From an uncultured bacterium (GTDB taxonomy: Bacteria > Patescibacteriota > Minisyncoccia > Phycocordibacterales > UBA9973): a DNA stretch of 64,000 nt. Numbering within the stretch: position 1 is the first letter of the stretch; each line of letters begins with the position of its first letter. Positions 2,044-60,697 of this stretch are shown here, one piece after another. The notes under the pieces are model-generated. The model was not told the origin of the DNA. It saw only the letters and a program-made list of their open reading frames with translations, and made no database searches. Position numbers and translations under genes: made by a program. The DNA is taken from assembly GCA_903892035.1 (NCBI GenBank), contig CAITGV010000001.1, forward strand, positions 91,624-155,623. Reading direction: 5' to 3'.

Positions 2044-3481
2044 AGAAGAAGAGATCATTGATCGTATGATCAATGATCGCACGTTCCGCATCGCACTCGT
2101 GAAGCAAAGCCATTTTTGGTTTTTTCATTATTACTTTGGGCAGAAGTATGCAAAGTATCCAACAGCGGATTTCCAGCGCGAGATGTTCAACATCACGGAA
2201 AATCCAGACTTGCAGAACATCGTCATCACCGCGTTTCGAGGATCGGCAAAATCGACGATCTTCACCCTCTCGTATGTCATATGGTCAATTGTCGGCGTGA
2301 AGCAAAAGAAGTTCGCGATTATTCTCGGACGCACGCAGTTGAACACCACGCCCAACTTGAATGCTATCAAGAAGGAGCTTGAAGAAAATAAGGCATTCCG
2401 TAGTGACTTCGGACCCTTTAAGGAAGAAATCGACAGTAACGGAACAACCCAGTCGATCTCCTTGCCCGACTATAACGCCCAGATATCGACGCGCTCGATC
2501 GGGCAGAACATACGCGGAATCAAGCACTTTCAGTATCGCCCCGACCTCATCATCGCTGACGACATCGAGGATTCTGAATCAATCAAGACGCAAGAGAACC
2601 GCGACAAGCTGTTCGACTGGCTCACGGGCGATGTGATCCCCGCTGGAGACCGCGACACACAGCTCATCTTTATCGGTACTCCTCTGCATAACGATTCGAT
2701 ACTCATGCGATTGAAAGAGATATTTAAAAATGGTGATAGTAAAAATATCTTCCGTGAGTTTCCAATCGTGAACGAGGACGGGATACCATTGTGGCGCGGG
2801 AAATTCAAGACACAGACGGATATCGACAACGAGCGAGCCAAGTGCTTCAGCGAATCAGTCTGGCAACGCGAGTATTTGTTGAAGATTGTTGACGGCGAAG
2901 ATCAAATAGTCAGAAGCGAACACATCCATTACTACGACGACATTCCGAACGAAGAGTGCCGATTCGCCGCCGTGTCGGTCGATCCCGCCAGATCGCTGAA
3001 ATTGACTGCCGATTACACCGCCATGGTTTCAGGCAAAATGTATGGACACGGAAAGGACAGAAAACTATACATCATGCCAAACCCTGTGAATGCTCGTCTG
3101 AACACAGACCAGTTGATACAAAAGGTGAAGAGCATTTCAATGGCTCTCAACAACAACGGCTACTATGCGCGAGTGTACGTCGAAGATGTCGGAATGCAGG
3201 GAATAATCGCCGACATTTTGAAAGCTAACGGTCTATCTGCAAAACTGTTTCCTGTTCGCGGTTGGAGCAAGGAAGACCGCCTCACCGCCGTGTCCTCGCT
3301 TATCGAGCTTGGACAAGTCGTCTTCCCAAGAAAGGGAGCAGAAAAGCTGATCGAGCAAATACTGGGATTCGGAAAGGAAGCACACGACGATTTGGTAGAC
3401 GCTTGCACCATGCTCATAATTCAAGCATTCGAGGATTCAAAACAACCCAGAATGAGTATCAAGACTTATTATTTCAGATAG
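2024..3481 (+). CDS. phage terminase large subunit (ATPase plus RNaseH-like nuclease)
   Basis: Walker A-like AFRGSAKST, Walker B LIIADDIEDSE, C-terminal nuclease acidic residues (VYVEDVGMQG, AHDDLVDA). Confidence 0.8.
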   Translation: MRNLNPREEEIIDRMINDRTFRIALVKQSHFWFFHYYFGQKYAKYPTADFQREMFNITENPDLQNIVITAFRGSAKSTIFTLSYVIWSIVGVKQKKFAIILGRTQLNTTPNLNAIKKELEENKAFRSDFGPFKEEIDSNGTTQSISLPDYNAQISTRSIGQNIRGIKHFQYRPDLIIADDIEDSESIKTQENRDKLFDWLTGDVIPAGDRDTQLIFIGTPLHNDSILMRLKEIFKNGDSKNIFREFPIVNEDGIPLWRGKFKTQTDIDNERAKCFSESVWQREYLLKIVDGEDQIVRSEHIHYYDDIPNEECRFAAVSVDPARSLKLTADYTAMVSGKMYGHGKDRKLYIMPNPVNARLNTDQLIQKVKSISMALNNNGYYARVYVEDVGMQGIIADILKANGLSAKLFPVRGWSKEDRLTAVSSLIELGQVVFPRKGAEKLIEQILGFGKEAHDDLVDACTMLIIQAFEDSKQPRMSIKTYYFR

Positions 3482-3482
3482 G

Positions 3483-4247
3483 CTATTTCGCCTCGCCAGC
3501 GGCGGTCGCGTACTGCAACCAGTTCGTGCTGATTTCCTTTTGCGCTTCTTGGATCGTCATCGCACCGCTACAGACTTGTCGGTGCAAGTAATTCTCAAAA
3601 ACGTCTTTCACTCTCGCCCCGTCTGGTATCAAATATGATTCAGGATACAAATTCGAGATATCGTTGCTTCCGCCGATTTCCAAGCTGATGATGTGATCGA
3701 CTTCATAGTTGGAGTGTTCAGTGGAATATGAAATACCGTATTCTGCGAATACCTCTTCTTTTGTCGCAACTGAAACATCGCGGACGGTTTTTGTGTAGCC
3801 GACCGTACAAACAGTCGGAATGTCGGTCGTGAGAACCGCGCCCGGCGAACAGGCTGGATCGGGTAATACGCCGTCCACACATCCGCTTGTCTTTGTCTGC
3901 ACTCCGTAGGTCGGAGTAGAGGTCGATTGAACGACAGTTTGCGATTTTATTACTGGCGCGGCGACAGGCACGCTCGTTGGCGGTGGTGTGATTTTTGCGG
4001 GAGCTATGGCGACAACGGTGTCGGTTGTGGTCGTTGAAGCTATTAAGGTCTCGGGCGCAGAAGCAATCGGGGTCGTCGCTGGCGCGGGCGATGCTACTCC
4101 GAACAATATAAAAAATGCAATCATTGATCCGCCAAAAACCAGACCTGCTTTTTTCCTAGATTTCAGTTTAAGGAGCGACGGCTTCCCGAGACCGATGATG
4201 AGAGCGAGGATTGATAAAAGAAATAGTGCGAGGAATATGTCTCTCAT
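3483..4247 (-). CDS. membrane-anchored or secreted protein with C-terminal HNH/EndoVII-like nuclease motif
   Basis: N-terminal TM/signal segment, Thr/Pro-rich linker, then EVDHIISLEIGGSNDISNLYP (HNH-type DH...GG...N motif). Confidence 0.5.
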   Translation of the reverse strand: MRDIFLALFLLSILALIIGLGKPSLLKLKSRKKAGLVFGGSMIAFFILFGVASPAPATTPIASAPETLIASTTTTDTVVAIAPAKITPPPTSVPVAAPVIKSQTVVQSTSTPTYGVQTKTSGCVDGVLPDPACSPGAVLTTDIPTVCTVGYTKTVRDVSVATKEEVFAEYGISYSTEHSNYEVDHIISLEIGGSNDISNLYPESYLIPDGARVKDVFENYLHRQVCSGAMTIQEAQKEISTNWLQYATAAGEAK

Positions 4248-4250
4248 ACG

Positions 4251-4691
4251 CTAGTTCTTCGAGACGAACTCGTTGGGAACGAATCCCGACTGTCCAATGT
4301 AGTCTCCGCTCATTATTCGCACCTCACTCGAACTGAATCCCTCACCAATGACCTTGACTTGTGTTCCATTTTTTACGGGAAGCACTTGTCCGTCCAAAAC
4401 CATTTGTGCTATTCCAGTTGTGTCACCCGCGACAGAAAGTTGCATCGTTCGATCAAAGTAATCTTTTGTGATCGGAACGAGAATTGGATCGGCACTACTT
4501 TTCAGATATGCTGTGTCGCCGATTAAAACTTGGCTAGCAGGAGGAGTAGGTGCTGAAGCACCTGAAGAATTACTACTACCTGAATTGCTAATAATCATCA
4601 CGAGTACACCGAGACCAATGATTGATCCATAAATTATTTTCTTCTTCTTACTCAATGGCTTTTTCGCACCTGCTTGATCGCTTTTTTCCAT
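4251..4691 (-). CDS. membrane-anchored hypothetical protein
   Basis: Lys-rich N-terminus, single TM helix (IIYGSIIGLGVLVMII), Ser-rich linker, extracytoplasmic beta-rich domain. Confidence 0.4.
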   Translation of the reverse strand: MEKSDQAGAKKPLSKKKKIIYGSIIGLGVLVMIISNSGSSNSSGASAPTPPASQVLIGDTAYLKSSADPILVPITKDYFDRTMQLSVAGDTTGIAQMVLDGQVLPVKNGTQVKVIGEGFSSSEVRIMSGDYIGQSGFVPNEFVSKN

Positions 4692-4954
4692 ACATACTTT
4701 TTTTGCGTGTTAGTAATAAATCCGAGGATGAGACGCAAAAAGCCCACCACATGGGTTGAGGGCTATTAGACCCTCCATACACCTTTCGATGTACGGCGAT
4801 CAAGCAAACCCCATATGATGGGTTCTTTATGCTTGATCGACTTTATTCGCCATGCCGCCGCTGAAGCGAGGGTTTAGGCTACTTACTTATTCAGTTGTTA
4901 ACAAACAATAGCATTTTCGACGCTATTATTCCAGACCATGATATCGCAGTACTG

Positions 4955-5012
4955 TGAAATCACTGAGGGGAGTTACCAACACGTTGCCAACAACGACCCC
5001 TCAGTGATTTCA
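4955..5012. promoter_or_regulatory. perfect 16-bp inverted repeat (TGAAATCACTGAGGGG / CCCCTCAGTGATTTCA) with a 26-bp spacer, just upstream of the recombinase start
   Basis: Read directly from the sequence. Lies 25 nt upstream of the probable start codon at 5037. Candidate operator or att core. Confidence 0.5.
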
Positions 5013-5036
5013 ACGATCTGCGTCATTAATATATAC

Positions 5037-6368
5037 ATGGAGACACAGTCATATAGCGCAATGATCGGAACGGCGAAAGTCGTACCGACCGTAAAAGTGA
5101 GATATTGTCTTTATGCGAGAAAATCGACAGAGCAAGATGAGAAGCAAGCTCTGTCTATTGATTCTCAAGTAAAAGAAATGTTACAGATCGCCGAGCGAGA
5201 CGGTTTGGAAGTGATAGACATTAGGAGAGAATCGCACTCGGCAAAAGATTCTGGACAACGACCAGTTTTTAAAGAAATTTTAGAAGATCTGCGGCGAGAT
5301 AGATTCAACGGAATCCTTGCATGGGCACCAGATCGTTTAAGTAGAAACGCTGGCGACCTCGGAAGCGTCGTCGATCTGATGGACGAAAAGCATCTAGTAG
5401 AAATACGAACGTACGGACAACAATTTAGAAATTCGCCGAACGAGAAATTCTTGCTCATGATTCTGTGTTCACAAGCAAAGCTCGAAAATGACAACAAAAG
5501 TATAAACGTGAAGCGAGGTTTAAAAACGAGATGTGAAATGGGACTATGGCCATGTCCCGCCCCTACTGGGTACGTCAAAGAAAAAAGAATGGATCGGAGG
5601 TGTCAGACACTAATAGATCCAGAGCGCGGGGCGATCGTAAAAAAGATTTTCGAGAAGGCGGCGTACGAGAAGTGGAGCGGACGAAAGATATATCACTGGC
5701 TGAAATTCGATCTGAACTTCCGAAGTGCGAACAGTAACAAGAACCTTACTTTGAGCAATATATACATGATGTTGGAAAACCCCTTTTACTACGGGGTTTT
5801 TGAATATCCGAGAAAAAGCGGAAACTGGTACAAAGGAACGTACGAGCCGCTCATCACAAAGGAGCTGTTCGACCAAGTCCAAGGACAGATGAAAAGTCAG
5901 ATCGTCAGATCCGAGAGTAAAGAATTTGCTTTCACGAAACTCATGACATGCGGAATGTGCGAATCTGGAATATGCGCCGACGAGAAATTCAAAAAGCCTA
6001 AAAACGGAAACATTCACCGATATGTCTACTACGGTTGTACCCGATCGAGAGACAAGAATTGCAAGTGCGGATTTATCGAAGAGAAAGAACTAATCAAGCA
6101 ATTTGAGGACATGCTCGACACGATCGACTTGGACGAGATCGGGATAAAGGAAAAGCTCAAGATTGAAGTCGAGCGATTCAAAAAATTCCAGCGAGTGATA
6201 CTAGGTAGTAAGGAAAAAATCGAGATTGGCGATGTCGATATTCGGAACTATACCAAGTACTTACTGCGAGACGGTTCAGATTTAGAGAAACGAGAATTAC
6301 TTGGATGCTTTAAAAGTAAAATAACCCTAAAACAAAAGACGATTTCATTGGCTAAAAACTCAAGTTAG
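5037..6368 (+). CDS. large serine recombinase (resolvase N-terminal domain, recombinase domain and zinc ribbon). The ORF is open from 4938.
   Basis: YARKST catalytic-Ser motif, PDRLSRN, recombinase domain, and C-terminal Cys cluster CGMCESGIC...YYGCTRSRDKNCKC. Confidence 0.85.
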   Translation: METQSYSAMIGTAKVVPTVKVRYCLYARKSTEQDEKQALSIDSQVKEMLQIAERDGLEVIDIRRESHSAKDSGQRPVFKEILEDLRRDRFNGILAWAPDRLSRNAGDLGSVVDLMDEKHLVEIRTYGQQFRNSPNEKFLLMILCSQAKLENDNKSINVKRGLKTRCEMGLWPCPAPTGYVKEKRMDRRCQTLIDPERGAIVKKIFEKAAYEKWSGRKIYHWLKFDLNFRSANSNKNLTLSNIYMMLENPFYYGVFEYPRKSGNWYKGTYEPLITKELFDQVQGQMKSQIVRSESKEFAFTKLMTCGMCESGICADEKFKKPKNGNIHRYVYYGCTRSRDKNCKCGFIEEKELIKQFEDMLDTIDLDEIGIKEKLKIEVERFKKFQRVILGSKEKIEIGDVDIRNYTKYLLRDGSDLEKRELLGCFKSKITLKQKTISLAKNSS

Positions 6369-6420
6369 TCAAAAAACGCCTACTAAACTATCGACTGGGG
6401 CGATTCAAAAAAGACTTACG

Positions 6421-7062
6421 CTAAATTTTATTTAGTTGAGTAACATGTTGTGCGTGTTTTTGTGATTCCATGCGAGCCAATTTACCCTCATGTGTTTCTG
6501 GCTCTATGTTTGCCGCGTCCTTAAAAATTTCTGTTGCACGCGTTTTAATTTCAACCTGCGTTGCCAAATTTTCCCTGCGTGCCATCTTAGAAGCGATTAT
6601 ATCCAACTGGTTAAAAAATACTTTTATGTAAATGAAATTAAGAACATCGTCTGTGGGTGTTCCTCGGGCTGGACTTACTTTCTTAAAATGCTTCACGTTT
6701 GAAGCTGTTTTAATGTAATCGGACACATTTCCTTGATTGATTCCGATTTGACTTTTATTAAAAATAATTTTGAAGAAAACATAAACAAACCCGAGAGTGT
6801 ATCCTATTTGAACAGCCGGTGAGCCAAATTTAAAAATTGAAAATGTGATACCAAAAAATATAACGAAAAGAATCAATATGCTTCCCAAATATTTTGAAAT
6901 AATCGGGTGATTTTTCGCAATCATATTTTCACGTTCAAGCTCTACTGTCAAAGGGATACAGAAGACGAGACAAATAACAGCCGAGAGGAGCGTGTAGCTC
7001 GCTATTATCATTCCGAAAATGAACGACACTATTAAAATAATCATTATATACAAAGTAATCAT
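6421..7062 (-). CDS. multi-pass membrane protein, hypothetical
   Basis: About 4 predicted TM helices, then a charged cytoplasmic C-terminus. Starts 11 nt downstream of the giant helicase gene on the same strand. Confidence 0.45.
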   Translation of the reverse strand: MITLYIMIILIVSFIFGMIIASYTLLSAVICLVFCIPLTVELERENMIAKNHPIISKYLGSILILFVIFFGITFSIFKFGSPAVQIGYTLGFVYVFFKIIFNKSQIGINQGNVSDYIKTASNVKHFKKVSPARGTPTDDVLNFIYIKVFFNQLDIIASKMARRENLATQVEIKTRATEIFKDAANIEPETHEGKLARMESQKHAQHVTQLNKI

Positions 7063-7073
7063 ATTTTTATCTC

Positions 7074-10000
7074 CTAAAGTGCTTTTGTTCCTTTACAATA
7101 GGGAAATTTTGAACATCCGTAGAATTTTCCTCTTTTGCCATTTCGGAGAATCATTTTTGATCGACAGCGCGGGCAGTCCTTATCTGAAAGAACTGGCGCG
7201 GGCTTATTATCTTTAACGGCTTGCGCTAAATCCTTGCAATATTTACAAAATTTTCCGCGACCACTAATTAATTTAGGATTCTTAAAATCAACATCCTCTC
7301 TTATTTCATGGCATTTTGGACATTCCTTTTTATCTCCATTTTGAAGACCCTCGATCGTCTCTTGAATGCCAGTCAGAACGGGATTATAGCTAGTACGAAC
7401 ATTTTTTATGAGACCACTGATTCGCTCGTTCAATGTCGATATCTGGTTAGCACCGATGTTGAATTTGTTTATTCGGAGAAACTTGTAACCGTAGCTTTCT
7501 AAAACCTTCTGTCGATAAATATCATCCTCGGAATAATATTCTTTGTAGTTGAATTCATTTACCTCCGCGAGATCGCTAAAATGCTCCTTGAAGCCGTCGT
7601 ACTCAATGACTATCTTGTGTTCATTACGATTCTCGTCTTTGTATACCAACAAGAAATCAACCTTGTAGTGGGGGTGCTTATAGGTACGATCGAGCTGTTT
7701 AAGATATTTGCCGATCTCGAATTGAGGAAAAAATTCGATGTTCTCTTTATTATTTTTCCAGAACTCCGTTTGATAAAACCAGTTCAATACCTCTGGTTCC
7801 ATTTTTGATTTCTGGTCTGTCTCGGAAACATCATGTTCCTTTTTGGCTTCTTCAAGAATAAAATAGTAGTGTCTTAACGCGTCACCTATTGAACCGCTGA
7901 ATTTGTCGAGCGGTTTGCTGAGAACGAAGTGGATCGTCTCTTTCGCTCGGCTGAAACCTACGTTCAATCGTTGTACTTTTATTTTACCGTCTTCTTCCGT
8001 ATCGACACTGTTAAAGTCCTTTATGAATACGCCCCAGAGCCTGTCGCTATTTTCATTTGCAACCATGGAGTAGAAAATAATGTCTCGTTCCTCACCTTGG
8101 CAGGTGTCAAATGTCATTATCTTCAAATTGAGATTTTCAAAATAGAAGTCACGCTCTGGGAGCTTGCTGATTGCTTCCATGAGTAGCTTCTGCTGATTCG
8201 TGTGGGGCGTAATGATACCGACGCTCTGATTTGTCTTGGCTTCATACAAAGTCTGCAACTGCTTGATTATGAAATCAATCTCCGCTCTATTGCTGTTAGG
8301 TACACTTTCCTCTTTTCCGTCATGATCGACGAAGCTAAATTTAATGACATCGTCGATGTTCTTACCTCGAATTTTCATGACCTGAAGACCACCCTGATAG
8401 AAATATTTATTTGAGTAAGAAATGATTTCCTTGTAGCCACGAAAATGCTTGAGTAGCTGAGTATTGTAGTTTGTGATAAATTCAAAGAACTCCAAGATTG
8501 AAGTCTTGATATCGAATTTTCCGAGTTTAACCAATTTTGAATCCTCTTCGGAAACTTGATCTCGAAACACTCGCGCCAGAGAATTCAGGTATTCTCGGTT
8601 TGTCTCCGATTTCGCTTGAGCCGCCTTGATATTGCTGAACTGCTTTTTGTCTCCGAGAATAAGAACTTTTTTTGCGCGGATCAAAGCTGGAAATGCCTGC
8701 GCGATACTCACCTGTGAAGCCTCATCAATAATAACCAAATCAAACAACCCCGCATTTAAAGGGATATATTCTGCGTAGTCTCTTATGCCCGCAAGAATAC
8801 AAGGAAAAGCATCTTTAAGTTTGAGAAACTGCTCTTTGGGGAATTTCATCTTGTTTTTAATGACCTCCCGCAAGGTTTCGGCATCTGCCTTATTATTGTT
8901 GTAGAAATCAATGAGACGACCGTCCAAAACGTGGGTAACCTGAGTTGTCACGAGCGTCTCAAGCTCCTTCTTTTGACTAACATAGCTCATCGCTGGGATC
9001 GATCCAAACTTAGAAGTTATAGAAGCTTTAAGTACGGGGTAGCGCGCGGATCGATCGAAATCAAGGCTACTCATCGTCACAAGCGGACTATTAAATATTC
9101 CCGAAAAATGCTCTTTTGAAATATTTAATTTTTGGATTGAAGCTGGGCATAGATCGAATTCCTCGAACAGTGACAACGCTTCTTTTTCAGTAGAAAGAAT
9201 TATTTTTTCTTGCTCATCAAAGTTGGTCTTTGATGAAACGAGTTCAACCAAAACGGCGACATGGTCGATACTCATTTCAGTGATAAGTTTTGATTGCGCT
9301 ACCAAAGCTTGGAAATAATCAAAAATTTCTATCGTCTGCTTCAACTCCTTGATATTCTCGTGAGCAATTCGATACTCCACCAGAGGAAACAGCTCTTTGA
9401 ACGAATTATCCAAAGACTGGAGTTTTGATCCGCTGAACATATAACCGACAATAGGCATTTTTGCTTCTTCGCAGTCACGAACCCATTTTTTGAGATTCAC
9501 CAAGTCTTTTTGGGCGAAAACCTTAAGCCGTGAGATCCGCTGAATGTCCTCGCCGAATCGGCGGTATGTTTCTTGAGCAAGGTGGTAATATGCCAAAAGA
9601 ATCTGCAAGAAGTTTAAGAGAATATCTTTACTCTTAAGGGTTTCGAGTTCAACATGTAGAATCTTTGAGAGACAGTCATTTTTAAATATTTGAGGCAATG
9701 AGAGAATGAACGATCGAAACTCTCCCAAAAATACAATCGCGCTTTCATTTTGAGAAAGTTCGTTAAGATCAAACGCGTATCCGTGCGAAGAATAAAAATC
9801 TTCTAAGGAGTAAAACTCACTTATTTCCTTCAGATCAATTTCAGAGTAAGCCAAAGCCTCTGCCTCGATATCTTCTTTTAGTGAATTTGAGAGCTTGGAA
9901 ATATTTTCCTCAATCGCAGCAAAATCTTTTTGGACGGCTCGATGATGAGTTTTTATCTTTTCAATTGATGATTTCGCAAGTATCTGTCCATATGTATTTC

Positions 10001-11630
10001 CTGTTTTCCCAAGTCTTAAGATTGGATTTTGGAAACCCTCGTTATCGTCAAGACGACGCACCTTGTTCATCGTTTCGGTAATTTTATCCTCAACGACATC
10101 AAGTGCCTCTTTCTTATCAGAAAGAACAAGTACCGATTGGTGATTTAAAATCGCGTCAAAAATAATCGCGGTGATTGTATGACTTTTACCAGTACCCGGG
10201 GGACCCTCTACGGTGATGTACTTACAGCCTGGCTTCCTGATCGCCGACAGAATTTGAATCTGCTCACTATTGAGTGGGATAGGGCTTTCAGAAACGAGCC
10301 TGTCGGGAATTGAGGCATCGTCCCATTCTTTCTCAACCTCTGGATTGAGGAGAATTGGATTCTTATGAATAAAGTCTTCGATGAGGGTGTTGAATATTTG
10401 AGCAAGCTCTCCCTCTTCCAAACTAAGTTGCTGGAGAATTTCCTCATAGTCATTCACAAGAGCTTCGTCCGATTTATCGAACAAGGAGAAATAAATTGAG
10501 TTTGAAGTTCTGACGCTCAAGCTTCTCGCTTGCTGGGGATCCTTGGAAGCGAGATCGATATTTTTATCAAGATCAAAAAGGTTAGTGATCTCGTTTAAGA
10601 TCGCTTCGAGCGTGTCGTTAGACTTACCCTGAGATAAGTAGATGATACGGTCAGTTACAGTTTTCAAATTACCCTTTGTTCCTTTTTCTTTGTTGTACTC
10701 TTGTACGATGAATTCGAGTGCCTTTTTGTTTATATAAATCTGTGAATCAAATTCAATTTTAAAAACATCATTGTCTCTTCGCAGGGAAAAAGGCGTATAG
10801 AAAATTGGGTACTTCGTTTTATCAAAAGTGATGTCGCAGAAGTAGAGGTAAAATTCTTGCTTATCTAAAATCGCCCTATTCTTATCAATTTCAAAAAGCT
10901 CACTAAAAAGGTCTCCCACTTGGAACGATTCAAAGAAAGTGTTTATCGCATTTTTTGCATCAGAAAGATCTATCACCGATTTGATCTCTTTTTGAACATT
11001 AACTTTCTGTCCCGAGATAAGCAATTTCAGAATTTCAGAAAGCTTATTCTCGATAAGCCTCAAGAATATCTCGGTCAATTCTTCCTCCATTAAAAAGATA
11101 TCGTTCTCATCACCAATACCGAGGCTTTCAACCGATTTTTCAATACTACCGACAAAAGGCAACACTAAGAAAGTTTTTATATGCACCGCGCTGTCCTCAA
11201 GAATCAATCCAAGGGCTTTATCATATTCCTTGGCGTACAAAGTAGCCGACTTTTCAAGATCGTCCGTGACGGCATTGATAAGCTCATTTATTTGAGAATT
11301 TTGAATTTTACCAACCTGCAGGCTGATCAAATCCAAAAGACTTTGGGGTAAATTACTCCTGTACACGCCCTTGCTGATCGTACTCAAAGCTGACTTGTCA
11401 AAACCGTGAGTGATTAGTTTCCAAATTTCTTTTGTGAATGAGGGATATTTTGAAAGGTTAATCCCAACGAGTAGATTGTCACTGGTTCGATATTTTATTG
11501 ACCTTTTAGGATTCTTCCTTTTGTGGAAATCCGTCTCAAGAAAGTCCATGAAATACTTCGCAACTTCTTTAACAAAAGTTAGGTTGCCAAGTCGCTCTTT
11601 CTCTTCAGACTGATTGGATTCGTTTTTCAT
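7074..11630 (-). CDS. 1518-aa multidomain protein: N-terminal DUF4011-like region, SF1B Upf1/DNA2-like helicase (AAA_11/AAA_12), DUF559/Vsr-like PD-(D/E)xK endonuclease, and two topoisomerase-I-type zinc ribbons
   Basis: Helicase motifs: Walker A GPPGTGKSH, motif II LVIIDEASQ, motif III ILGDKKQ, motif V TFDTCQGEERD, motif VI RLNVGFSRAK. DUF559 core: KVDFLLV...IVIEYDGFKEHF...GYKFLRINKFNI. C-terminal CPKC..CKYC and CPRC..GCSKFPYC zinc ribbons. Confidence 0.8.
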   Translation of the reverse strand: MKNESNQSEEKERLGNLTFVKEVAKYFMDFLETDFHKRKNPKRSIKYRTSDNLLVGINLSKYPSFTKEIWKLITHGFDKSALSTISKGVYRSNLPQSLLDLISLQVGKIQNSQINELINAVTDDLEKSATLYAKEYDKALGLILEDSAVHIKTFLVLPFVGSIEKSVESLGIGDENDIFLMEEELTEIFLRLIENKLSEILKLLISGQKVNVQKEIKSVIDLSDAKNAINTFFESFQVGDLFSELFEIDKNRAILDKQEFYLYFCDITFDKTKYPIFYTPFSLRRDNDVFKIEFDSQIYINKKALEFIVQEYNKEKGTKGNLKTVTDRIIYLSQGKSNDTLEAILNEITNLFDLDKNIDLASKDPQQARSLSVRTSNSIYFSLFDKSDEALVNDYEEILQQLSLEEGELAQIFNTLIEDFIHKNPILLNPEVEKEWDDASIPDRLVSESPIPLNSEQIQILSAIRKPGCKYITVEGPPGTGKSHTITAIIFDAILNHQSVLVLSDKKEALDVVEDKITETMNKVRRLDDNEGFQNPILRLGKTGNTYGQILAKSSIEKIKTHHRAVQKDFAAIEENISKLSNSLKEDIEAEALAYSEIDLKEISEFYSLEDFYSSHGYAFDLNELSQNESAIVFLGEFRSFILSLPQIFKNDCLSKILHVELETLKSKDILLNFLQILLAYYHLAQETYRRFGEDIQRISRLKVFAQKDLVNLKKWVRDCEEAKMPIVGYMFSGSKLQSLDNSFKELFPLVEYRIAHENIKELKQTIEIFDYFQALVAQSKLITEMSIDHVAVLVELVSSKTNFDEQEKIILSTEKEALSLFEEFDLCPASIQKLNISKEHFSGIFNSPLVTMSSLDFDRSARYPVLKASITSKFGSIPAMSYVSQKKELETLVTTQVTHVLDGRLIDFYNNNKADAETLREVIKNKMKFPKEQFLKLKDAFPCILAGIRDYAEYIPLNAGLFDLVIIDEASQVSIAQAFPALIRAKKVLILGDKKQFSNIKAAQAKSETNREYLNSLARVFRDQVSEEDSKLVKLGKFDIKTSILEFFEFITNYNTQLLKHFRGYKEIISYSNKYFYQGGLQVMKIRGKNIDDVIKFSFVDHDGKEESVPNSNRAEIDFIIKQLQTLYEAKTNQSVGIITPHTNQQKLLMEAISKLPERDFYFENLNLKIMTFDTCQGEERDIIFYSMVANENSDRLWGVFIKDFNSVDTEEDGKIKVQRLNVGFSRAKETIHFVLSKPLDKFSGSIGDALRHYYFILEEAKKEHDVSETDQKSKMEPEVLNWFYQTEFWKNNKENIEFFPQFEIGKYLKQLDRTYKHPHYKVDFLLVYKDENRNEHKIVIEYDGFKEHFSDLAEVNEFNYKEYYSEDDIYRQKVLESYGYKFLRINKFNIGANQISTLNERISGLIKNVRTSYNPVLTGIQETIEGLQNGDKKECPKCHEIREDVDFKNPKLISGRGKFCKYCKDLAQAVKDNKPAPVLSDKDCPRCRSKMILRNGKRGKFYGCSKFPYCKGTKAL

Positions 11631-11713
11631 TTATATCTTTACATTCTAGCATTTTTGATTTATTTTCTAAATCTTTAAAAATCGCCCCGCGCGGGGCGAT
11701 TTTTAATCGAAAC

Positions 11714-12340
11714 CTAAAGCCCGAGAGCTTTCATTTTTTCTCGGATATGAGGAGAACTTTTTGACTCTCTAGGAAATGACCCATCTTCATTAAAGAAAGA
11801 AATTTCTTTAGCTGAATGATTTGCTTTTTTGGGAAATAATAATGCAATTTTTTCTATGTCAGTGTATGGAGCAACTTCTAGCTTTTTACCCTCAATCTCT
11901 GGACTTTCTTTTATAAGTTTACCTACTGCTTCGGCAGCTACTTGCCAGTAGGTAGCGATTGCTATTTCGTGTTCAACAATAGATCCTTCGTGATATTTTT
12001 CTAGATGTTCCAATAATTCTTCAGTAGAATACCAAAGGATATCCCATTTGTGTGATCCTTCCGAATAGTCGATTTTTGTTGATTCTCCTAGCATGAGGAG
12101 AAATGCCAGTTTCAAGAGAGGAGTCCCATTTTCAGCGTGCATTGAAAACACATCAAGCCAGTTTCCCTCAAGTTTTCCATACAAGTGAGGGTAGTCTTTA
12201 AATCTCTCTTTCTTTTTCTGTTCATATTCAACATCGGACTTTTCGTTAGCAATTTCTGTTTTTTCATCCTCCTTTTGACGAAAAATACGCCAGAGTATAT
12301 ATGCTATTATCCCAAGAAGAATCACAATAAGTATTTCCAT
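11714..12340 (-). CDS. hypothetical protein with N-terminal TM helix
   Basis: Hydrophobic N-terminus (ILIVILLGIIAYILW). No recognised motif. Upstream of the helicase on the same strand. Confidence 0.4.
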   Translation of the reverse strand: MEILIVILLGIIAYILWRIFRQKEDEKTEIANEKSDVEYEQKKKERFKDYPHLYGKLEGNWLDVFSMHAENGTPLLKLAFLLMLGESTKIDYSEGSHKWDILWYSTEELLEHLEKYHEGSIVEHEIAIATYWQVAAEAVGKLIKESPEIEGKKLEVAPYTDIEKIALLFPKKANHSAKEISFFNEDGSFPRESKSSPHIREKMKALGL

Positions 12341-12403
12341 ATCTTTATATTAGCAGAAAGCGACCCCGCTATAAAGCTCTAATTCTAAGCGTCTTGAACC
12401 AAC

Positions 12404-12431
12404 TAAAAAGCACCCAATCGGGTGCTTTTTA
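12404..12431. terminator. bidirectional rho-independent terminator hairpin
   Basis: AAAAAGCACCC-AATC-GGGTGCTTTTT. Confidence 0.55.
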
Positions 12432-12582
12432 GTTCTGAATACCGCTCTCAGCGGGTATGCTATTACTGAATAGATCCATTGAGTGGTTCGAGTCCAGAGA
12501 TGGTCATTGATTTTAGGATTTTTAGAGATTTCTAAAACCTTTATAAATCAACGCTCTCTGAGCGAACGAACTGCGCTCAACT

Positions 12583-12656
12583 TGGCTGCCGGACTTGGAC
12601 TCGAACCAAAATGACCACTTTCAGAGAGTGGCATCCTACCATTAGATGATCCGGCA
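12583..12656 (-). tRNA. tRNA-Gln (anticodon CUG)
   Basis: Hand-folded cloverleaf. Acceptor UGCCGGA/UCCGGCA, D-arm AUCU..GGAU, anticodon stem CCACU/AGUGG with loop CUCUGAA, T-arm UUUGG-UUCGAGU-CCAAG. G73 discriminator and encoded CCA. Confidence 0.8.
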
Positions 12657-12728
12657 ATGGTAAAAGCATTCTTACAATACCTTAAAAATGGCCTTTTTTC
12701 AAGGTCAAAAATCTGCTACACTCAAGTA

Positions 12729-13421
12729 ATGCCTGCACCAAAACACATTGTAATATTTTCACATGGATTCGGTACAAAAAAGGATGACCGAGGATTACTT
12801 TCTGGTGAACACGGAATTGCAGAAGCTTTACAAGAACAAGGTATCGAAACAATACTTTTCGACTACAATGATGTAAATGAAGATACTCAATACATTACAG
12901 TACGACCACTAAGTATTCAAATAAAAATGCTTGCAGATGTAATAGCTGAAAGTAGAGAGAGAAACGAAGATGTAATAATTGATATCATAGCTCATTCACA
13001 AGGTTGCATAACTCCTGCGAAACTAATGCCAGAAGGTATTCGCAAAATAATTTTCGTGGCCCCTTCGCTCGATGTAAACAACCAAAGAATGATAGACCAA
13101 TTCAAAGACCGCCCAGGAACGATAATAGATCTTGAAGGAACATCAACTTTTGGAGGACGCAAAGATGGAACTACAACTATTGTTCCAAAAGAATATTGGG
13201 TAGAAAGAGGGAATGCTCTGCCAATTCCCCTATTTAATGCGCTATCTAAAATTACAGAACTAACAATGATTCGGCCAAATCAAGATGACATTTTAGGAAA
13301 TATGAGCATTGATGGGCTCTCAAAAGAAATCAAAGTAATCTATCTCGATGGTAATCATGGTTTCCATGGAGAAAAAGATAGAACAAAATTAATTGAGACT
13401 ATAAAAAATATTTTAATTTAA
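12729..13421 (+). CDS. alpha/beta-hydrolase fold protein (ORF open from 12657)
   Basis: HGFG oxyanion motif and AHSQG nucleophile elbow (GxSxG). Confidence 0.55.
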   Translation: MPAPKHIVIFSHGFGTKKDDRGLLSGEHGIAEALQEQGIETILFDYNDVNEDTQYITVRPLSIQIKMLADVIAESRERNEDVIIDIIAHSQGCITPAKLMPEGIRKIIFVAPSLDVNNQRMIDQFKDRPGTIIDLEGTSTFGGRKDGTTTIVPKEYWVERGNALPIPLFNALSKITELTMIRPNQDDILGNMSIDGLSKEIKVIYLDGNHGFHGEKDRTKLIETIKNILI

Positions 13422-13425
13422 TTTT

Positions 13426-15402
13426 TTATTTCTTCTCACCTCTGACTAGGACTTGAAGCAAGAGGTCGAGTTTGATTGTAGCGACGCCGGTGACGCGGTC
13501 GCCACCGCCGTAATAGATATAGAGTAAACCGTCGCGTTCGGTAATGCCACAAGGAAATACGACATTGTTTACTATTCCATTTTTTTCATAATCTTCCTCT
13601 GGTTCAAATATCGGGTCTGTCGTACGAGAGATGACAATTGCAGGGTCTTTTTTATCAAGCAAAACTGCGCCGACGCGGTATGTGCTGTGGCTTTTTGAAA
13701 CACCGTGATAAAGAAGGAGCCAACCGTATTTTGTCTTTATCGGTGGTGCCGCGATGCCAACTTTGAGCCCATCCCAAGCATTTACGCGTGGACCAAAAAT
13801 TCGAATGCATTTTTTAACACTATCTTTTTTGAAATCTAAGGAATGCAAATAGTCTCCGCAAACTTGCTCCCCTACGCGGTGCATCACCATATATCCACCT
13901 TGAACTTTTTCTGGAAATATACAAGTATCTTTGTCGTCAAAACCATTTGGAGTAATTAGAATTGGTTTTTCCCATTTCCAATTTTTTGCAAGAAAATCTT
14001 TTTCAGTTATTGAAGTCACAGCTACGCGTGGTGGGCCGATGCTGTCATAAGCTGTATAACACATATAAATAATTTTCCCAATTTGCGTAATGCGTGGGTC
14101 TTCACAACCAGAATTTGCACCGGTAATTTTTTTTATTTCAAAATCCTCATGTGGAGAATAAATAGGCTCCGTTAAGCGTTCAAAAATAGTCACCCCGTCT
14201 TTACTTGAAGCATAACCGATATACGAAGTATTGTCGCCAGAAAGTGCGCGGTAAAGGATGTAAGTCATTTTACCAATTTTTATTGCTGCAGGATTAAATA
14301 CTGCTTTTGACTCCCATTCATGCTCAGGTATAGGTAAAAGAATAGGATTATTTTTATATCTTTTGCATTGCCAATCACCCTCTGTCTCACTTCTCATAGT
14401 AGAAAGTAAATCATTTACATCCACACTTGCTCTACATGCTGTAGTATCACTTGCGCCATAATAAATATGCAATGTTCTATCTTCCAATATAGCTCCACTT
14501 GGAAAAACAATATTTGAAATGTGCCCTGTAAGTTCATACGACTCAGTTGGAACTAAAATTGGGCCTTTTGTGCGAGCCAAAATTTTATGTGCATCATTTC
14601 TATCCATCAACAATGCTTCAATACCAAAAATACGATCCTGATTATTTCCACTTTGAAAATAATTTTCTATATATGAATATAAAAGTAGCCAACCATATTT
14701 TGTTTTTACTGGCACTGCCCCAACTTCAGTATGGTCGTATTGTGAGCGAAGAGGATTTACAAGAACATGCTTTTCCAAATCTTCATTCCATTTATCCCAA
14801 AATTCTTTTTTCCAAAAATCTTCCACATTATTTGCTTCTGCAATTGCAATTTTTGCTGGAGGGCTGTCTGTATGAATTGTTAAAATTAAAATTACTTTTC
14901 CGTTTATTCTTTCAGGAAAAAGTGCTGCAGCTTTTGCATTAAAAGGTGTTACCAAATGTCTTTCATCAACTTTTTCTAAATTCTTTGAAATTGCTACTGC
15001 AACTTTTATATTTTCTGCAGAAAATGGATACCCACCAAGAGCAGTGTAGAATGTATAATATTTTCCTTCAAAAAAAGTCACGCGCGGGTCCTCGCAACCA
15101 TATTTCTCCCACTCTGCTTCTGGCACAATAAATTGCCTTCTATCTTCAAAATGCACTCCGTCTTTCCCCTGCCCAATACCTATCACAGAAACTTGTTCTG
15201 GTTTTCGCATTTTGTCTGGCAAGGACATTGCGCGATATAGTCCATAATAATTTTTTCCAATTTTTATTGGTGAAAGATTGAAAGTCGCCGAAGATTCCCA
15301 GTAATGGTCTCTATCTGGAACAAGTATTGGATTGTGATGTGAGCGTTTTACGACGTACATATTATTTTTTCTTTTTAACTTCTTGTGTAGAAAATTTTGC
15401 AC
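13426..15402 (-). CDS. tandem GH130-family glycoside (mannoside) phosphorylase-like protein with two beta-propeller domains
   Basis: Two repeats of the GH130/DUF377 pattern (GCEDPR, YGWLLLYH, YYGxxD). Confidence 0.55.
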   Translation of the reverse strand: MQNFLHKKLKRKNNMYVVKRSHHNPILVPDRDHYWESSATFNLSPIKIGKNYYGLYRAMSLPDKMRKPEQVSVIGIGQGKDGVHFEDRRQFIVPEAEWEKYGCEDPRVTFFEGKYYTFYTALGGYPFSAENIKVAVAISKNLEKVDERHLVTPFNAKAAALFPERINGKVILILTIHTDSPPAKIAIAEANNVEDFWKKEFWDKWNEDLEKHVLVNPLRSQYDHTEVGAVPVKTKYGWLLLYSYIENYFQSGNNQDRIFGIEALLMDRNDAHKILARTKGPILVPTESYELTGHISNIVFPSGAILEDRTLHIYYGASDTTACRASVDVNDLLSTMRSETEGDWQCKRYKNNPILLPIPEHEWESKAVFNPAAIKIGKMTYILYRALSGDNTSYIGYASSKDGVTIFERLTEPIYSPHEDFEIKKITGANSGCEDPRITQIGKIIYMCYTAYDSIGPPRVAVTSITEKDFLAKNWKWEKPILITPNGFDDKDTCIFPEKVQGGYMVMHRVGEQVCGDYLHSLDFKKDSVKKCIRIFGPRVNAWDGLKVGIAAPPIKTKYGWLLLYHGVSKSHSTYRVGAVLLDKKDPAIVISRTTDPIFEPEEDYEKNGIVNNVVFPCGITERDGLLYIYYGGGDRVTGVATIKLDLLLQVLVRGEKK

Positions 15403-16591
15403 TAATATTTTTAATTAATTCATTTAGAAAATCATCAAGCTTTGCAGTTGCGACACAAGCGACAGTATCTGCCCCACCGTAATACACAAAAAGCTTTCCA
15501 CTTTTCACCACTGCCCCACAACAGTATACAACCCCCCACTTGTGACCATTGTTCTCATACCACTCATCTGGAGCAAGGACTGATTCACGACTGCGATATA
15601 GTACTTTTTTCGGATCTTTTTCATCTAAAATCATTGCAAAAAGTTTATAACGATTTGGATCATTTTGCTCCATCGCATGATATAGCACAAGCCACCCGTA
15701 TTTTGTTTTTATTGGTGCTGGGCCCACTCCACGAATTCCCCTATCGCGAAGTTGCCACAAAGGGCTATCTTGATGCAAACTATGAATAAATTTTTTACCA
15801 TCGAAAGCATCGAGGCTCTCGACATAGTCAATCATTATTTCAGGAGAAATTGCATGAAGGATTGCATATTTACCATTTATTTTCTCCGGGAAAATTACCC
15901 AATTTTTCTGAACTTCACCCGGCGGAGAAATCATCACCGATTTTTTCCAAGCCCAATTTTTTAAAATTAAATTTCGAAGCGTTATTGAAGTGAGAGCAAT
16001 ACGCACAGAACCCCAGCCATCAAATGCTGTATAGAGCATATAAACTTTCCCATTTATTAAAGTTAGTCGTGGATCTTCGCACCCCCCACTCCATCCACCA
16101 CCAGATACATATGAAATAGGTTTATTTTTTTTATTTGTTTTTACGTAAACTCGCGTAAAAACTGGCATTCCAGATTTCTCAATAATACTTTCTCCATCGA
16201 GACTCAAAGCATAGCCCAATGCTGAAGTATCTCCCACGCCTATTGCACGGTATATGATGTGCACTTTGCCATCATGCTCTACTGCGGAAGGATTGAATGT
16301 AGCTACTGATTCCCAATTTGGATAATGCGAAGGAGAAATAATAGGGTTATTTGTGGCTCTTACTAACTTCAGTGGTGATACTACTATCTTTTTCTTTATT
16401 ACTTTTTTTGTAATTTTTTTAATTACTTTCTTTACTATCTTTTTTTTAATTACAATTTTCTTTTTTAGAATAACTTTTTTCTTAACAAATACTTTCTTTT
16501 TTGAGACAGTTTTTTTCTTAGAAATTACTTTTTTCTTTTTGAAGATTTTCTGTACAACTTTTTTAATTTTTTTCTTTTTTAAAATTACCAT
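15362..16591 (-). CDS. GH130-family glycoside phosphorylase-like protein with a ~80-aa Lys/Val/Ile-rich N-terminal extension
   Basis: CEDPR, YGWLVLYHA and VYYGGADT motifs. The N-terminus is a periodic KKKVxxKK repeat. Confidence 0.55.
   Translation of the reverse strand: MVILKKKKIKKVVQKIFKKKKVISKKKTVSKKKVFVKKKVILKKKIVIKKKIVKKVIKKITKKVIKKKIVVSPLKLVRATNNPIISPSHYPNWESVATFNPSAVEHDGKVHIIYRAIGVGDTSALGYALSLDGESIIEKSGMPVFTRVYVKTNKKNKPISYVSGGGWSGGCEDPRLTLINGKVYMLYTAFDGWGSVRIALTSITLRNLILKNWAWKKSVMISPPGEVQKNWVIFPEKINGKYAILHAISPEIMIDYVESLDAFDGKKFIHSLHQDSPLWQLRDRGIRGVGPAPIKTKYGWLVLYHAMEQNDPNRYKLFAMILDEKDPKKVLYRSRESVLAPDEWYENNGHKWGVVYCCGAVVKSGKLFVYYGGADTVACVATAKLDDFLNELIKNISAKFSTQEVKKKK
16356..16588. repeat. 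low-complexity poly-A/T coding repeat encoding the Lys-rich tail
   Basis: Seen directly as periodic tttttctt/aaa tracts. Confidence 0.6.
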
Positions 16592-16592
16592 T

Positions 16593-17360
16593 TTATTTTG
16601 AGATAAGTTTTTTTATGACTTTTTCGGTTTCTTTTGGACCAGAAACTTCTACACAATCTGCTCCGGAAGCCCTTGCTGGAAAATCATTTCCACCAGGCTC
16701 GAGTTTATCACCCACAAACATAATATCACTTTTAATCACCCCAAGATAGGAAATAATTTTATTTATTGAATAAGCCTTATCAATCCCCTTTCTTGTCACA
16801 TCAATAGTACTCATTCCACCCAAGCTTATTGAAAAATCAGGTAAAAATGGAAGCATTACATCTCGAAGTGCACTTCTCTTTTCCATTTTTGGGTCCCATA
16901 CAGATTTTATTTCGATCGGTGCACTTTGCCCGCATCCAGAAAATGAAATTTGTGTTGCTCTATCTTCTATCACAGGGCCATATGAAGGAGTAGGTAAAAT
17001 TATTTTTGTTTGTTTCAAGGCTTCGTTCCATGCGTGCATTATTTTTGTTTTTTCGTCAGTATTCAATAATTCTTCATATTCACAAACCCAATTATTATCC
17101 TTATATAAATATAAGGAACTTCCATTTGTTGGGAATAAATATAAATGATTTTTCAATCCATCACCTATGTGGCCAAGTCCATCTAGAATTTGTTTTTGAT
17201 ATTGAGGAAATGCTCCACCAGAAACAATTGCAACGTAATGCTCTTCCAAAAGAGAGCTCAGTAAATCAGACATTTCAATGGTCATTTTTGACTTACTTTC
17301 AGTGAGAGTACCGTCGAGGTCAAAAACCACAACTTTATATTTTTTTTGATCTGGAATCAT
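16593..17360 (-). CDS. HAD-superfamily hydrolase, eukaryotic-type phosphomannomutase-like
   Basis: VVFDLDGTLT motif I, size ~255 aa, and context with the PMI cupin and GH130 genes. Confidence 0.5.
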   Translation of the reverse strand: MIPDQKKYKVVVFDLDGTLTESKSKMTIEMSDLLSSLLEEHYVAIVSGGAFPQYQKQILDGLGHIGDGLKNHLYLFPTNGSSLYLYKDNNWVCEYEELLNTDEKTKIMHAWNEALKQTKIILPTPSYGPVIEDRATQISFSGCGQSAPIEIKSVWDPKMEKRSALRDVMLPFLPDFSISLGGMSTIDVTRKGIDKAYSINKIISYLGVIKSDIMFVGDKLEPGGNDFPARASGADCVEVSGPKETEKVIKKLISK

Positions 17361-60695: not shown

Positions 60696-60697
60696 CT

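What the first reader, a model, noticed from the sequence alone, without database searches (positions are those of the whole stretch)
6421..12340. Three-gene operon centred on a 1518-aa helicase-nuclease-zinc-ribbon fusion, flanked by membrane proteins
The 7074..11630 ORF joins four parts in one polypeptide. There is a ~470-aa N-terminal region, a complete SF1B Upf1/DNA2-like helicase, a DUF559/Vsr-like PD-(D/E)xK endonuclease core (VDFLLV..IVIEYDGxxH..GYKFLRI), and two topoisomerase-I-type zinc ribbons. It is co-directional with an upstream TM protein and followed after 11 nt by a 4-TM protein. Nuclease-helicase fusions of this kind recur in anti-phage immunity, and membrane partners often act as effectors. 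The operon sits between a phage-like island and tRNA-Gln. That this assembly is a defence module is my inference, not an established system.
Basis: partly seen in the sequence, partly recalled or inferred. Interest (0 to 1): 0.7.

Follow-up and report, generated by a model that had tools for sequence, protein, structure and literature searches.

The report
Stand-alone Hhe-like helicase-nuclease gene cassette
The 1518-residue helicase-nuclease-zinc-ribbon protein is real. It is a stand-alone, horizontally spreading gene, distantly related to the single-protein anti-phage system Hhe, and not the centre of a three-gene operon with membrane partners.

Summary
The three ORFs and the domain layout of the 1518-aa protein are confirmed. 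It has a family-specific N-terminal domain and an Upf1-like SF1 helicase split by a variable ~340-aa insert. These are followed by a divergent Vsr/MTES_1575-type nuclease and C-terminal zinc ribbons.

The "three-gene operon" does not hold. A strong terminator hairpin and a promoter-like site separate the upstream gene from the helicase. Neither flanking membrane protein occurs in any of 80 related loci. The downstream gene has only two homologs besides itself among 5.8 billion proteins.

The large protein belongs to a tightly conserved family of about 1300-1700 aa. The family was found in 105 of 185,579 species genomes, mostly Patescibacteria, but also many other bacterial phyla and archaea. 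Homology between close relatives stops at the ORF borders. The gene is AT-richer than its flanks. About a quarter of loci have a large serine recombinase within 10 kb.

The closest known relative is the anti-phage protein Hhe. The order of parts is the same, with 23-31% identity over helicase and nuclease. It fails Hhe membership because it has no DUF4011 and scores far below the cut-off.

My best reading is a single-protein nuclease-helicase defence or mobile-element conflict gene, at confidence about 0.5. No enrichment of known defence genes was seen nearby.

The parts
7074..11630 (-). Single gene for the 1518-aa helicase-nuclease-zinc-ribbon protein. This is the whole functional unit proposed here.
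   Evidence: ORF. More than 120 full-length homologs at 57-81% identity. DNA homology to the closest relatives starts about 40 nt inside the ORF and ends at the stop codon.
10275..11630 (-). N-terminal family-specific domain (residues 1-452). It has a long helical bundle plus an alpha/beta subdomain, with conserved FLETDF and DKSDEALxNDYEEIL motifs.
9831..10274 (-). Helicase domain 1A, first part (residues about 453-600), with Walker A GPPGTGKSHT at 476-485.
   Evidence: AAA_11 at 453-591. Upf1 and IGHMBP2 align here. Walker A is kept in 187 of 190 full-length relatives.
8811..9830 (-). Variable insertion inside the helicase (residues about 601-940). It is the least conserved part of the family.
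   Evidence: The consensus of alignment A1 is mostly undefined here. Hhe has a longer insertion at the same place.
7911..8810 (-). Helicase core, second part (residues about 941-1240). It carries Walker B IIDEASQ 967-973, GDKKQ 993-997, QGEERD 1178-1183 and VGFSRAK 1224-1230.
   Evidence: AAA_12 at 1055-1235 and AAA_30. PADLOC MkoC, PDC-S37, MkoA and Hhe, and NCBIfam ProA and Hhe, match only this part. The motifs are kept in at least 186 of 190 relatives.
7416..7910 (-). Linker and Vsr/MTES_1575-type PD-(D/E)xK endonuclease (residues about 1241-1405). Predicted active-site residues are D1325, E1343, D1345, H1350, D1370 and R1373.
   Evidence: MTES_1575 in 17 of 17 and DUF559 in 16 of 17 members, below the gathering scores. 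The domain aligns collinearly with the MTES_1575 domain of annotated Hhe. These residues are invariant in A1. EYDGxxH is kept in 186 of 190 relatives.
7221..7343 (-). First zinc ribbon (CPKC 1437-1440 ... CKYC 1462-1465).
   Evidence: The four Cys are invariant in A1. It aligns to the zinc-ribbon region of E. coli topoisomerase I as part of a profile match whose whole-sequence E is 1e-5 (this stretch alone: i-Evalue 2.1). PRK06319 covers 1407-1515. Some family members lack it.
7077..7181 (-). Second zinc ribbon, topoisomerase-I type (CPRC 1486-1489 ... C1506, C1512).
   Evidence: Pfam Zn_ribbon_Top1 E 8e-11, above the cut-off. Present in 137 of 190 relatives.
11675..11706 (-). Intrinsic-terminator hairpin after the upstream gene. 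It has A and T runs on either side of the stem.
   Evidence: Sequence. Fold of -29.2 kcal/mol, z -4.9, with 0 of 200 shuffles as stable.
11643..11671 (-). Promoter-like site TTTAGA-17-TAGAAT with TG before the -10 element, 13 nt upstream of the helicase ATG.
   Evidence: Consensus scan. This is a pattern match only.
6421..7062 (-). Downstream 213-aa membrane protein. It is probably co-transcribed here but is not a conserved partner, so it is not counted as part of the system.
   Evidence: SD AGGAG at 7071-7075 and an 11-nt gap. Only two homologs besides itself. Absent from the 80 related genome loci.
11714..12340 (-). Upstream 208-aa protein with one N-terminal hydrophobic segment. It is a separate transcription unit and not part of the system.
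   Evidence: Terminator. More than 400 homologs in other contexts. Absent from helicase loci.
4938..6368 (+). Large serine recombinase, convergent with the helicase unit. This gene class recurs near family members.
   Evidence: NCBIfam CcrB/XisF-like and PHROG integrase. A large serine recombinase lies within 10 kb in 22 of 84 loci.

Best explanation
The 7074-11630 gene is a self-contained, single-protein nuclease-helicase. It is carried as horizontally transferred cargo, often on integrative elements or prophages that use large serine recombinases.

It most likely acts in defence or in conflict between mobile elements, in the manner of Hhe.

Proposed mechanism (inferred, not shown):
- The Upf1-like SF1 motor loads on single-stranded DNA exposed in invading or replicating foreign DNA. 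The Topo-I-type zinc ribbons help it hold the strand.
- The motor translocates using ATP.
- The Vsr-type PD-(D/E)xK domain cuts the DNA.
- The family-specific N-terminal domain and the variable insert in the helicase would sense the target or keep the enzyme off until triggered.

Shown here: the domain content, the conservation of the ATPase and nuclease motifs, the single-gene unit, the patchy distribution across phyla, and the link to recombinases.

Inferred: the substrate, the trigger and the biological role.
For: Family and motifs
- Homologs are full-length and strongly conserved (57-81% identity in the top 120).
- ATPase and nuclease motifs are kept in at least 97% of 190 full-length relatives.

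Distribution and mobility
- Relatives were found in 105 of 185,579 species genomes. They are spread over Patescibacteria, many other bacterial phyla and archaea at 40-79% identity.
- DNA homology between close relatives stops at the ORF borders.
- The gene has lower G+C than its flanks in all six related loci checked, for example 36% against 46-48% in L082. In the window it has 39.5% G+C, between the phage module (47.6%) and the host DNA (35.5%).
- A large serine recombinase lies within 10 kb in 22 of 84 loci. It is the only clearly enriched neighbour family.
- A small HTH gene sits directly upstream in about 25 loci.

Link to a known defence protein
- The order of parts matches annotated anti-phage Hhe. 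BLASTP identity is 23% across the helicase second half plus nuclease (E 1e-17) and 31% across the Walker A region (E 5e-12).
- NCBIfam's two best hits are the anti-phage proteins ProA and Hhe. PADLOC's best hits are MkoC, PDC-S37, MkoA and Hhe.
Against: - No experiment exists for this family.
- Scores to every defence model come from the helicase only and lie far below the family cut-offs (140 against 1500 for ProA, 109 against 2000 for Hhe).
- A random sample of 123 neighbouring genes from 57 loci shows mostly housekeeping genes. Only two UvrD-type helicases reached E<=1e-15 among the 25 most-matched PADLOC families shown. The usual guilt-by-association signal is therefore missing. Defence models may also be poor for Patescibacteria.
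- Only 2 hits in 2.9 million viral contigs, and no full-length hit in 50,697 phage records.
- All related loci are metagenome bins, so part of the taxonomic breadth could come from mis-binned mobile contigs.
Confidence: 0.5

Rival explanations
1. The protein serves the mobile element that carries it. It would act as a replication, recombination or DNA-processing helicase-nuclease of serine-recombinase elements or prophages, not as an immune enzyme.
For: It lies next to a module of ParB-methyltransferase, TerS, TerL and serine recombinase in the window and 7 other loci, in several orders. In L082 and L023 the recombinase and helicase ORFs end 7-8 nt apart. L028 and L073 share both the recombinase and the helicase at 77-90% DNA identity.
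Against: About three quarters of loci have no recombinase within 10 kb, and many sit among housekeeping genes, for example L084. The gene's G+C differs from the element on both sides. It is nearly absent from viral contigs and phage genomes. No PHROG family covers it.
Confidence: 0.17
2. It is a Mokosh-like RNA-directed system. The Upf1-like motor would act on phage RNA or RNA-DNA hybrids, with the nuclease as effector.
For: The best PADLOC scores are to MkoC and MkoA (150 and 130 bits). The best solved relatives, Upf1, IGHMBP2 and Sen1, act on RNA as well as DNA (their substrates are from my own knowledge).
Against: The matches cover the helicase core only. No PLD domain is present. The effector is a Vsr-type DNA endonuclease and the zinc ribbons are of the single-stranded-DNA-binding Topo I type.
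Confidence: 0.12
3. One reading: a three-gene defence operon in which the flanking membrane proteins are effectors or partners of the helicase-nuclease.
For: The three genes are co-directional. The downstream gene is almost certainly co-transcribed (11-nt gap, SD overlapping the stop). One of its two homologs sits upstream of a SIR2_2 gene.
Against: Neither protein occurs in any of the 80 related genome loci. The downstream protein has only two homologs besides itself. A terminator and a promoter-like site insulate the upstream gene. Downstream genes of homologs are heterogeneous, and 13 of 45 have predicted membrane segments, which I judge, without a computed control, to be no enrichment.
Confidence: 0.04
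4. It is a housekeeping repair or replication helicase-nuclease (DNA2- or AddAB-like) of this lineage.
For: The helicase-plus-nuclease combination resembles DNA2. DNA2 appears among weak PDB hits.
Against: It is present in 0.06% of species genomes. Even relatives at 79% identity share no synteny. The composition is foreign to the flanks.
Confidence: 0.03

Closest known systems
Hhe (HheA), single-protein anti-phage system: DUF4011 + SF1 helicase + Vsr-type endonuclease. The example used is Klebsiella plasmid pNU-CRE047_5, WP_058876132.
   Same: Both are one large polypeptide with the same order of parts. A roughly 430-450-aa N-terminal region is followed by an SF1 helicase split by a long insert, then an MTES_1575/Vsr-type nuclease, then a C-terminal extension. 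Alignment is collinear, at 31% identity around Walker A and 23% from Walker B through the nuclease.
   Different: The N-terminal domain is not DUF4011 (Pfam none; hmmsearch E>=0.2; hhalign probability 0.2%). The insert is about 340 aa against about 740 aa. The C-terminus carries zinc ribbons. In the family's founding protein MTES_1575 the C-terminal DUF3320 region overlaps two winged-helix domains (PMC3710099). The NCBIfam score is 109 against a cut-off of 2000.
ProA (NCBIfam NF058533, 'anti-phage protein ProA')
   Same: It is the best NCBIfam hit. The profile is about 1900 positions long with the helicase in the same relative position.
   Different: The score is 140 against a cut-off of 1500, and only the helicase second half matches. 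I found no paper describing ProA in the library.
Mokosh MkoA/MkoC and PADLOC candidate PDC-S37
   Same: Upf1-like SF1 helicase core. These are the best PADLOC scores, at 130-150 bits.
   Different: Only residues about 953-1245 match. Mokosh type II pairs the helicase with a PLD nuclease (my own knowledge), and no PLD domain is present here.
Eukaryotic and archaeal Upf1-like SF1B helicases (Upf1, IGHMBP2, Sen1, DNA2)
   Same: All helicase motifs are shared. They are the best solved-structure relatives. TIGR00376 (IGHMBP2 family) matches at 3e-21.
   Different: Those are housekeeping RNA or DNA surveillance enzymes, and they lack the N-terminal domain, the Vsr nuclease and the Topo-I ribbons seen here.
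Other nuclease-helicase defences (Nhi, Hna, Hachiman HamAB)
   Same: The general logic is the same: a helicase motor coupled to a nuclease acting on foreign DNA. Hachiman is described in PMC12278908.
   Different: No sequence match was reported to the PADLOC models of these systems. The helicase families or nuclease folds differ (my own knowledge).

Membership tests
Hhe (HheA) | N-terminal DUF4011 domain | tested here: not met
   No DUF4011 hit at E<=10 in 16 members. hmmsearch of the N-terminal profile against 5 Hhe-like proteins gives E>=0.2. hhalign probability 0.2%. Annotated Hhe scores 1.5e-37 for DUF4011.
Hhe (HheA) | SF1 helicase (AAA_11/AAA_12) split by a long insert | tested here: met
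Hhe (HheA) | MTES_1575/Vsr-type endonuclease after the helicase | tested here: met
   Collinear BLASTP alignment through the Hhe nuclease. MTES_1575 in 17 of 17 members, but below the gathering score (best 4e-6). Motif residues are invariant.
Hhe (HheA) | Score above the curated family cut-off (NCBIfam NF042953, 2000 bits) | tested here: not met
   108.9 bits, helicase part only. The PADLOC Hhe model gives 72.6 bits, helicase part only.
Hhe (HheA) | Protects cells against phage | not testable with these tools
   Needs a phage challenge of the cloned gene.
ProA (NF058533) | Score above the curated cut-off (1500 bits) | tested here: not met
   140.4 bits, covering residues 939-1234 only.
Mokosh type II (MkoC) | Helicase fused to a PLD-family nuclease | tested here: not met
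   No PLD domain in Pfam. The MkoC match is limited to 960-1245.
Upf1-like SF1(B) helicases | Walker A, Walker B and motifs III, V and VI; similarity to Upf1/IGHMBP2 | tested here: met
   The 5'-3' polarity is inferred only.
Vsr/DUF559 PD-(D/E)xK endonucleases | D...ExDG..H...D..R motif set and a Pfam match | tested here: inconclusive
   The motif set is present and invariant. Pfam matches are consistent across members but all below the gathering scores (24.6 against 38.2 and 15.6 against 20.6). No solved Vsr structure was hit by the profile. The C-terminal structure was not modelled.
Topoisomerase-I-type zinc ribbon | Pfam PF01396 above the cut-off | tested here: met
   Second ribbon: 42-45 bits against a cut-off of 32. 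The first ribbon aligns only in the profile search against E. coli Topo I.
Defence-island gene (guilt by association) | Neighbours enriched in known defence genes | tested here: not met
   Among 123 sampled neighbours, the only PADLOC hits at E<=1e-15 in the list shown (25 of 173 families) come from two UvrD-type helicases. Pfam shows mostly housekeeping genes plus serine recombinases. A few immediate downstream genes are OLD/GajA-like or AriA-like. No formal background control was run.

The most novel reading that the evidence does not exclude
This would be an unrecognised, widespread family of single-protein nuclease-helicase immune enzymes. Its roughly 450-aa N-terminal domain has no detectable relative in Pfam or in solved structures. 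The family is concentrated in the ultra-small Patescibacteria and occurs in archaea, where few defence systems are known. It would be exchanged across phyla and domains as a bare one-gene cassette, often next to large serine recombinases.
Probability: 0.45. Interest if true: 0.6.

Novelty: new variant of a known kind. Interest (0 to 1): 0.45.

Why it matters
If the family is defensive, it adds a distinct branch to the Hhe-type single-protein nuclease-helicases. It would also give a concrete, testable immune gene for Patescibacteria and DPANN-type archaea. These are groups whose anti-virus repertoire is poorly covered by current models.

The well-modelled N-terminal domain has no structural relative. 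It is the obvious candidate for a new sensing or regulatory module.

The result also removes a false lead, because the membrane proteins are not partners.

Tried and rejected
- Synteny of the flanking genes: tblastn against the 80 related genome loci found nothing.
- A hidden common family among downstream genes: BLAST clustering and iterated HMMs kept them in small clade-specific groups.
- DUF4011 in the N-terminus: rejected by Pfam at E<=10, hmmsearch and hhalign.
- First N-terminal structure model with a shallow alignment: too poor to use (pLDDT 61). It was redone with a diverse alignment.
- The AlphaFold-database library was not available.
- Island borders and att sites: no meaningful direct repeats in 1-13500. 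The tRNA-like fragment at 12481-12506 is unique in the window and in all loci. The left end of the island lies outside the window.
- Self-mobile cassette with terminal repeats: rejected, because homology between close relatives ends at the ORF borders with no shared flanks.
- Phage-borne gene: only 2 viral contigs and no full-length hit in phage genomes.
- Literature on ProA, or on this domain combination: nothing found.
- Organism name through cluster look-up: no names.
Full report
**1. What is in the sequence**

Three ORFs lie on the minus strand: 12340-11714 (208 aa), 11630-7074 (1518 aa) and 7062-6421 (213 aa).

The large protein contains the following parts.
- An SF1 helicase. Pfam AAA_11 matches at 453-591 and AAA_12 at 1055-1235, with AAA_30 as well.
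- In a profile search of solved structures, the best relatives are IGHMBP2, Upf1, Sen1 and DNA2. NCBIfam gives the IGHMBP2 family at 3e-21.
- After the helicase comes a divergent Vsr-type nuclease. MTES_1575 is hit by all 17 family members tested and DUF559 by 16, always below Pfam's gathering scores.
- The motif residues D1325, E1343, D1345, H1350, D1370 and R1373 are invariant in a 16-sequence alignment.
- The C-terminus has two four-cysteine ribbons. The second passes Pfam's Zn_ribbon_Top1 cut-off.
- Both ribbons fall within a profile match to the zinc-ribbon region of E. coli topoisomerase I (whole-sequence E 1e-5; the stretch that spans both ribbons scores weakly on its own).

**2. The operon claim**

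Between the stop of the upstream gene and the ATG of the helicase lies a 14-bp G+C-rich hairpin flanked by A and T runs. Its free energy is -29.2 kcal/mol, with z -4.9 and no shuffle as stable. A TTTAGA-17-TAGAAT site with an extended -10 follows. The upstream gene is therefore its own transcription unit.

The downstream gene starts 11 nt after the helicase stop, with AGGAG overlapping that stop. It is probably co-transcribed.

**3. Are the flanking genes partners? No.**

- A scan of one genome for each of 185,579 species found 105 relatives, and 80 loci were kept.
- tblastn with both flanking proteins found nothing in those 80 loci at E<=0.01. The only hit was the downstream protein in L001, the source's own contig.
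- The 213-aa protein has two homologs besides itself among 5.8 billion proteins. One of them sits upstream of a SIR2_2 gene on a short contig.
- The 208-aa protein belongs to a Patescibacteria family of more than 400 hits that occurs in varied contexts without the helicase.
- In 45 of 63 loci with downstream DNA there is a co-directional ORF within 200 nt. These ORFs fall into many unrelated families:
  - DUF2779 (a BLAST cluster of five, three of which hit the Pfam model)
  - DUF2130, three
  - ParA-like, three
  - one OLD/GajA-like and two AriA-like
  - several housekeeping enzymes
- Iterated HMMs did not merge them.
- Hydrophobic segments occur in 13 of 45, which I judge, without a computed control, to be about what is usual for membrane proteins.

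**4. The family**

- The top 120 homologs are all about 1500-1610 aa and 57-81% identical over the full length.
- The N-terminal 452 residues are as conserved as the enzymatic parts.
- A profile of this region, searched against 1.84 billion representative proteins, found 538 proteins. The region was always at the N-terminus of proteins of 1300-1715 aa, or in shorter sequences that look like fragments.
- Members differ at the C-terminus. Of 190 full-length sequences, 137 have the Topo-I-type ribbon, about 25 have a single ribbon and about 20 end right after the nuclease.
- Walker A, Walker B, motifs III, V and VI, and the nuclease EYDGxxH motif are kept in at least 97% of members. This argues that both enzymatic activities are in use.

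**5. The N-terminal domain**

- With a shallow alignment the model was poor. With 30 diverse sequences it reached pLDDT 84.5 and pTM 0.64.
- The fold is a long helical bundle (about 96-235), then an alpha/beta subdomain (about 237-385), then more helices.
- Foldseek gave nothing at E<=0.001.
- The domain has no Pfam match.
- It shows no profile similarity to the DUF4011 regions of five Hhe-like proteins.
- Its role as sensor or regulator is my inference from its position and conservation.

**6. Distribution and mobility**

- The 80 loci come from Patescibacteria (about 32) and archaea (6: Methanoperedens, Woesearchaeota and one uncultured archaeon).
- The rest come from a wide set of other phyla, including Acidobacteriota, Planctomycetota, Actinomycetota, Bacillota, Chloroflexota and several Proteobacteria.
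- All are metagenome bins, so some assignments may be wrong.
- A more distant member (36% identity) sits on a Priestia megaterium plasmid.
- Relatives at 79% protein identity share no neighbouring genes with the window.
- DNA homology runs from about 40 nt inside the ORF to the stop codon and no further.
- The gene is AT-richer than both flanks in all six related loci examined:

| Locus | Gene G+C | Flank G+C |
|---|---|---|
| L082 | 36% | 46-48% |
| L023 | 30% | 32-40% |
| L072 | 27% | 33-40% |
| Window | 39.5% | 47.6% (phage module), 35.5% (host) |

- The one clearly enriched neighbour is a large serine recombinase, found within 10 kb in 22 of 84 loci.
- In the window and 7 other loci the gene lies next to a module of ParB-methyltransferase, TerS, TerL (missing in some of these loci) and recombinase, in varying order.
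- Small HTH genes lie directly upstream in about 25 loci, but not in the window.
- Only two of 2.9 million viral contigs carry the gene, and no phage genome record does.

**7. Comparison with known systems**

- The best annotated relative is Hhe, a single-protein anti-phage system. Its activity is referred to in 10.1101/2024.04.14.589459, and it is listed as HheA in PMC12278908.
- The Klebsiella Hhe has DUF4011, a split SF1 helicase and an MTES_1575 nuclease.
- It aligns collinearly with the window protein, at 31% identity around Walker A and 23% from Walker B through the nuclease.
- MTES_1575 was defined as a novel Vsr-type restriction-endonuclease fold fused to SF1 helicases (PMC3710099).
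- The window protein fails Hhe membership on the N-terminal domain and on the family cut-off (109 against 2000 bits). It fails ProA in the same way (140 against 1500 bits).
- PADLOC's MkoC, PDC-S37 and MkoA match only the helicase core.
- I therefore file it as working like Hhe, but as a separate family.

**8. How strong is the defence inference?**

For it:
- homology and shared architecture with a validated defence protein
- patchy distribution across phyla and a bare-cassette structure
- foreign base composition
- linkage to integrative elements
- frequent small upstream regulator genes

Against it:
- A random sample of 123 neighbouring genes (at least 200 aa, within 8 kb, from 57 loci) is dominated by housekeeping functions. 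The only PADLOC hits at E<=1e-15 among the 25 most-matched families shown come from two UvrD-type helicases.
- No background control was run, and defence models may under-detect in Patescibacteria.

**9. Verdict**

This is a new variant of a known kind, of moderate interest.

Noticed in passing
window 12481-12506 (+): A 26-nt stretch, GAGTGGTTCGAGTCCAGAGATGGTCA, looks like the T-arm plus 3' acceptor strand of a tRNA. No complete tRNA is called there. It lies between tRNA-Gln and the 208-aa gene. It could be an old attachment-site remnant. It is unique in the window and in all fetched loci.
   Followed up: partly
window 321-6368, and L082, L057, L041, L062, L023: A recurring module of ParB-methyltransferase, TerS, TerL, 0-3 small genes and a large serine recombinase; L041 and L062 lack TerL. 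No portal or capsid gene follows TerL. It may be a satellite-like or defective element and not a full prophage.
   Followed up: partly
L089 1-14255: In a relative, the 79% ortholog of the 208-aa gene is followed by Multi_ubiq and ThiF/E1-like genes and then a convergent serine recombinase. It is preceded by GmrSD, a type I restriction-modification system and a UvrD helicase. The layout matches the window but the cargo differs, which suggests a variable hotspot.
   Followed up: no
window 60456-60542 (-) and 60611-60696 (+): Two divergent tRNA-Ser genes lie 68 nt apart. ARAGORN reports one with the unusual anticodon ACT.
   Followed up: no
left of window start (contig shown; L001 12272-14631): A gene for a KAP-family P-loop NTPase (YobI-ATPase) of more than 920 aa lies just beyond the methyltransferase. 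This is another domain often seen in conflict systems.
   Followed up: no
L090 147-3475: One of the only two homologs of the 213-aa membrane protein sits at the head of a co-directional cluster that includes a SIR2_2 protein.
   Followed up: no
P0305; L075, L080: Some family members come from Gracilibacteria and Absconditabacterales. P0305 reads W where glycine is conserved (WPPWTWKSH), consistent with UGA read as glycine in those lineages and mistranslated in the source.
   Followed up: no
L069 6082-10652: Here the homolog is split into two ORFs of 571 and 937 aa. It may be a pseudogene or a sequencing error.
   Followed up: no
window 13426-17845: To the right of tRNA-Gln lies a sugar cluster: two GH130 beta-1,2-mannoside phosphorylase-like genes, a phosphomannomutase-type hydrolase and a nucleotidyltransferase. 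This is ordinary host DNA at about 35% G+C.
   Followed up: no
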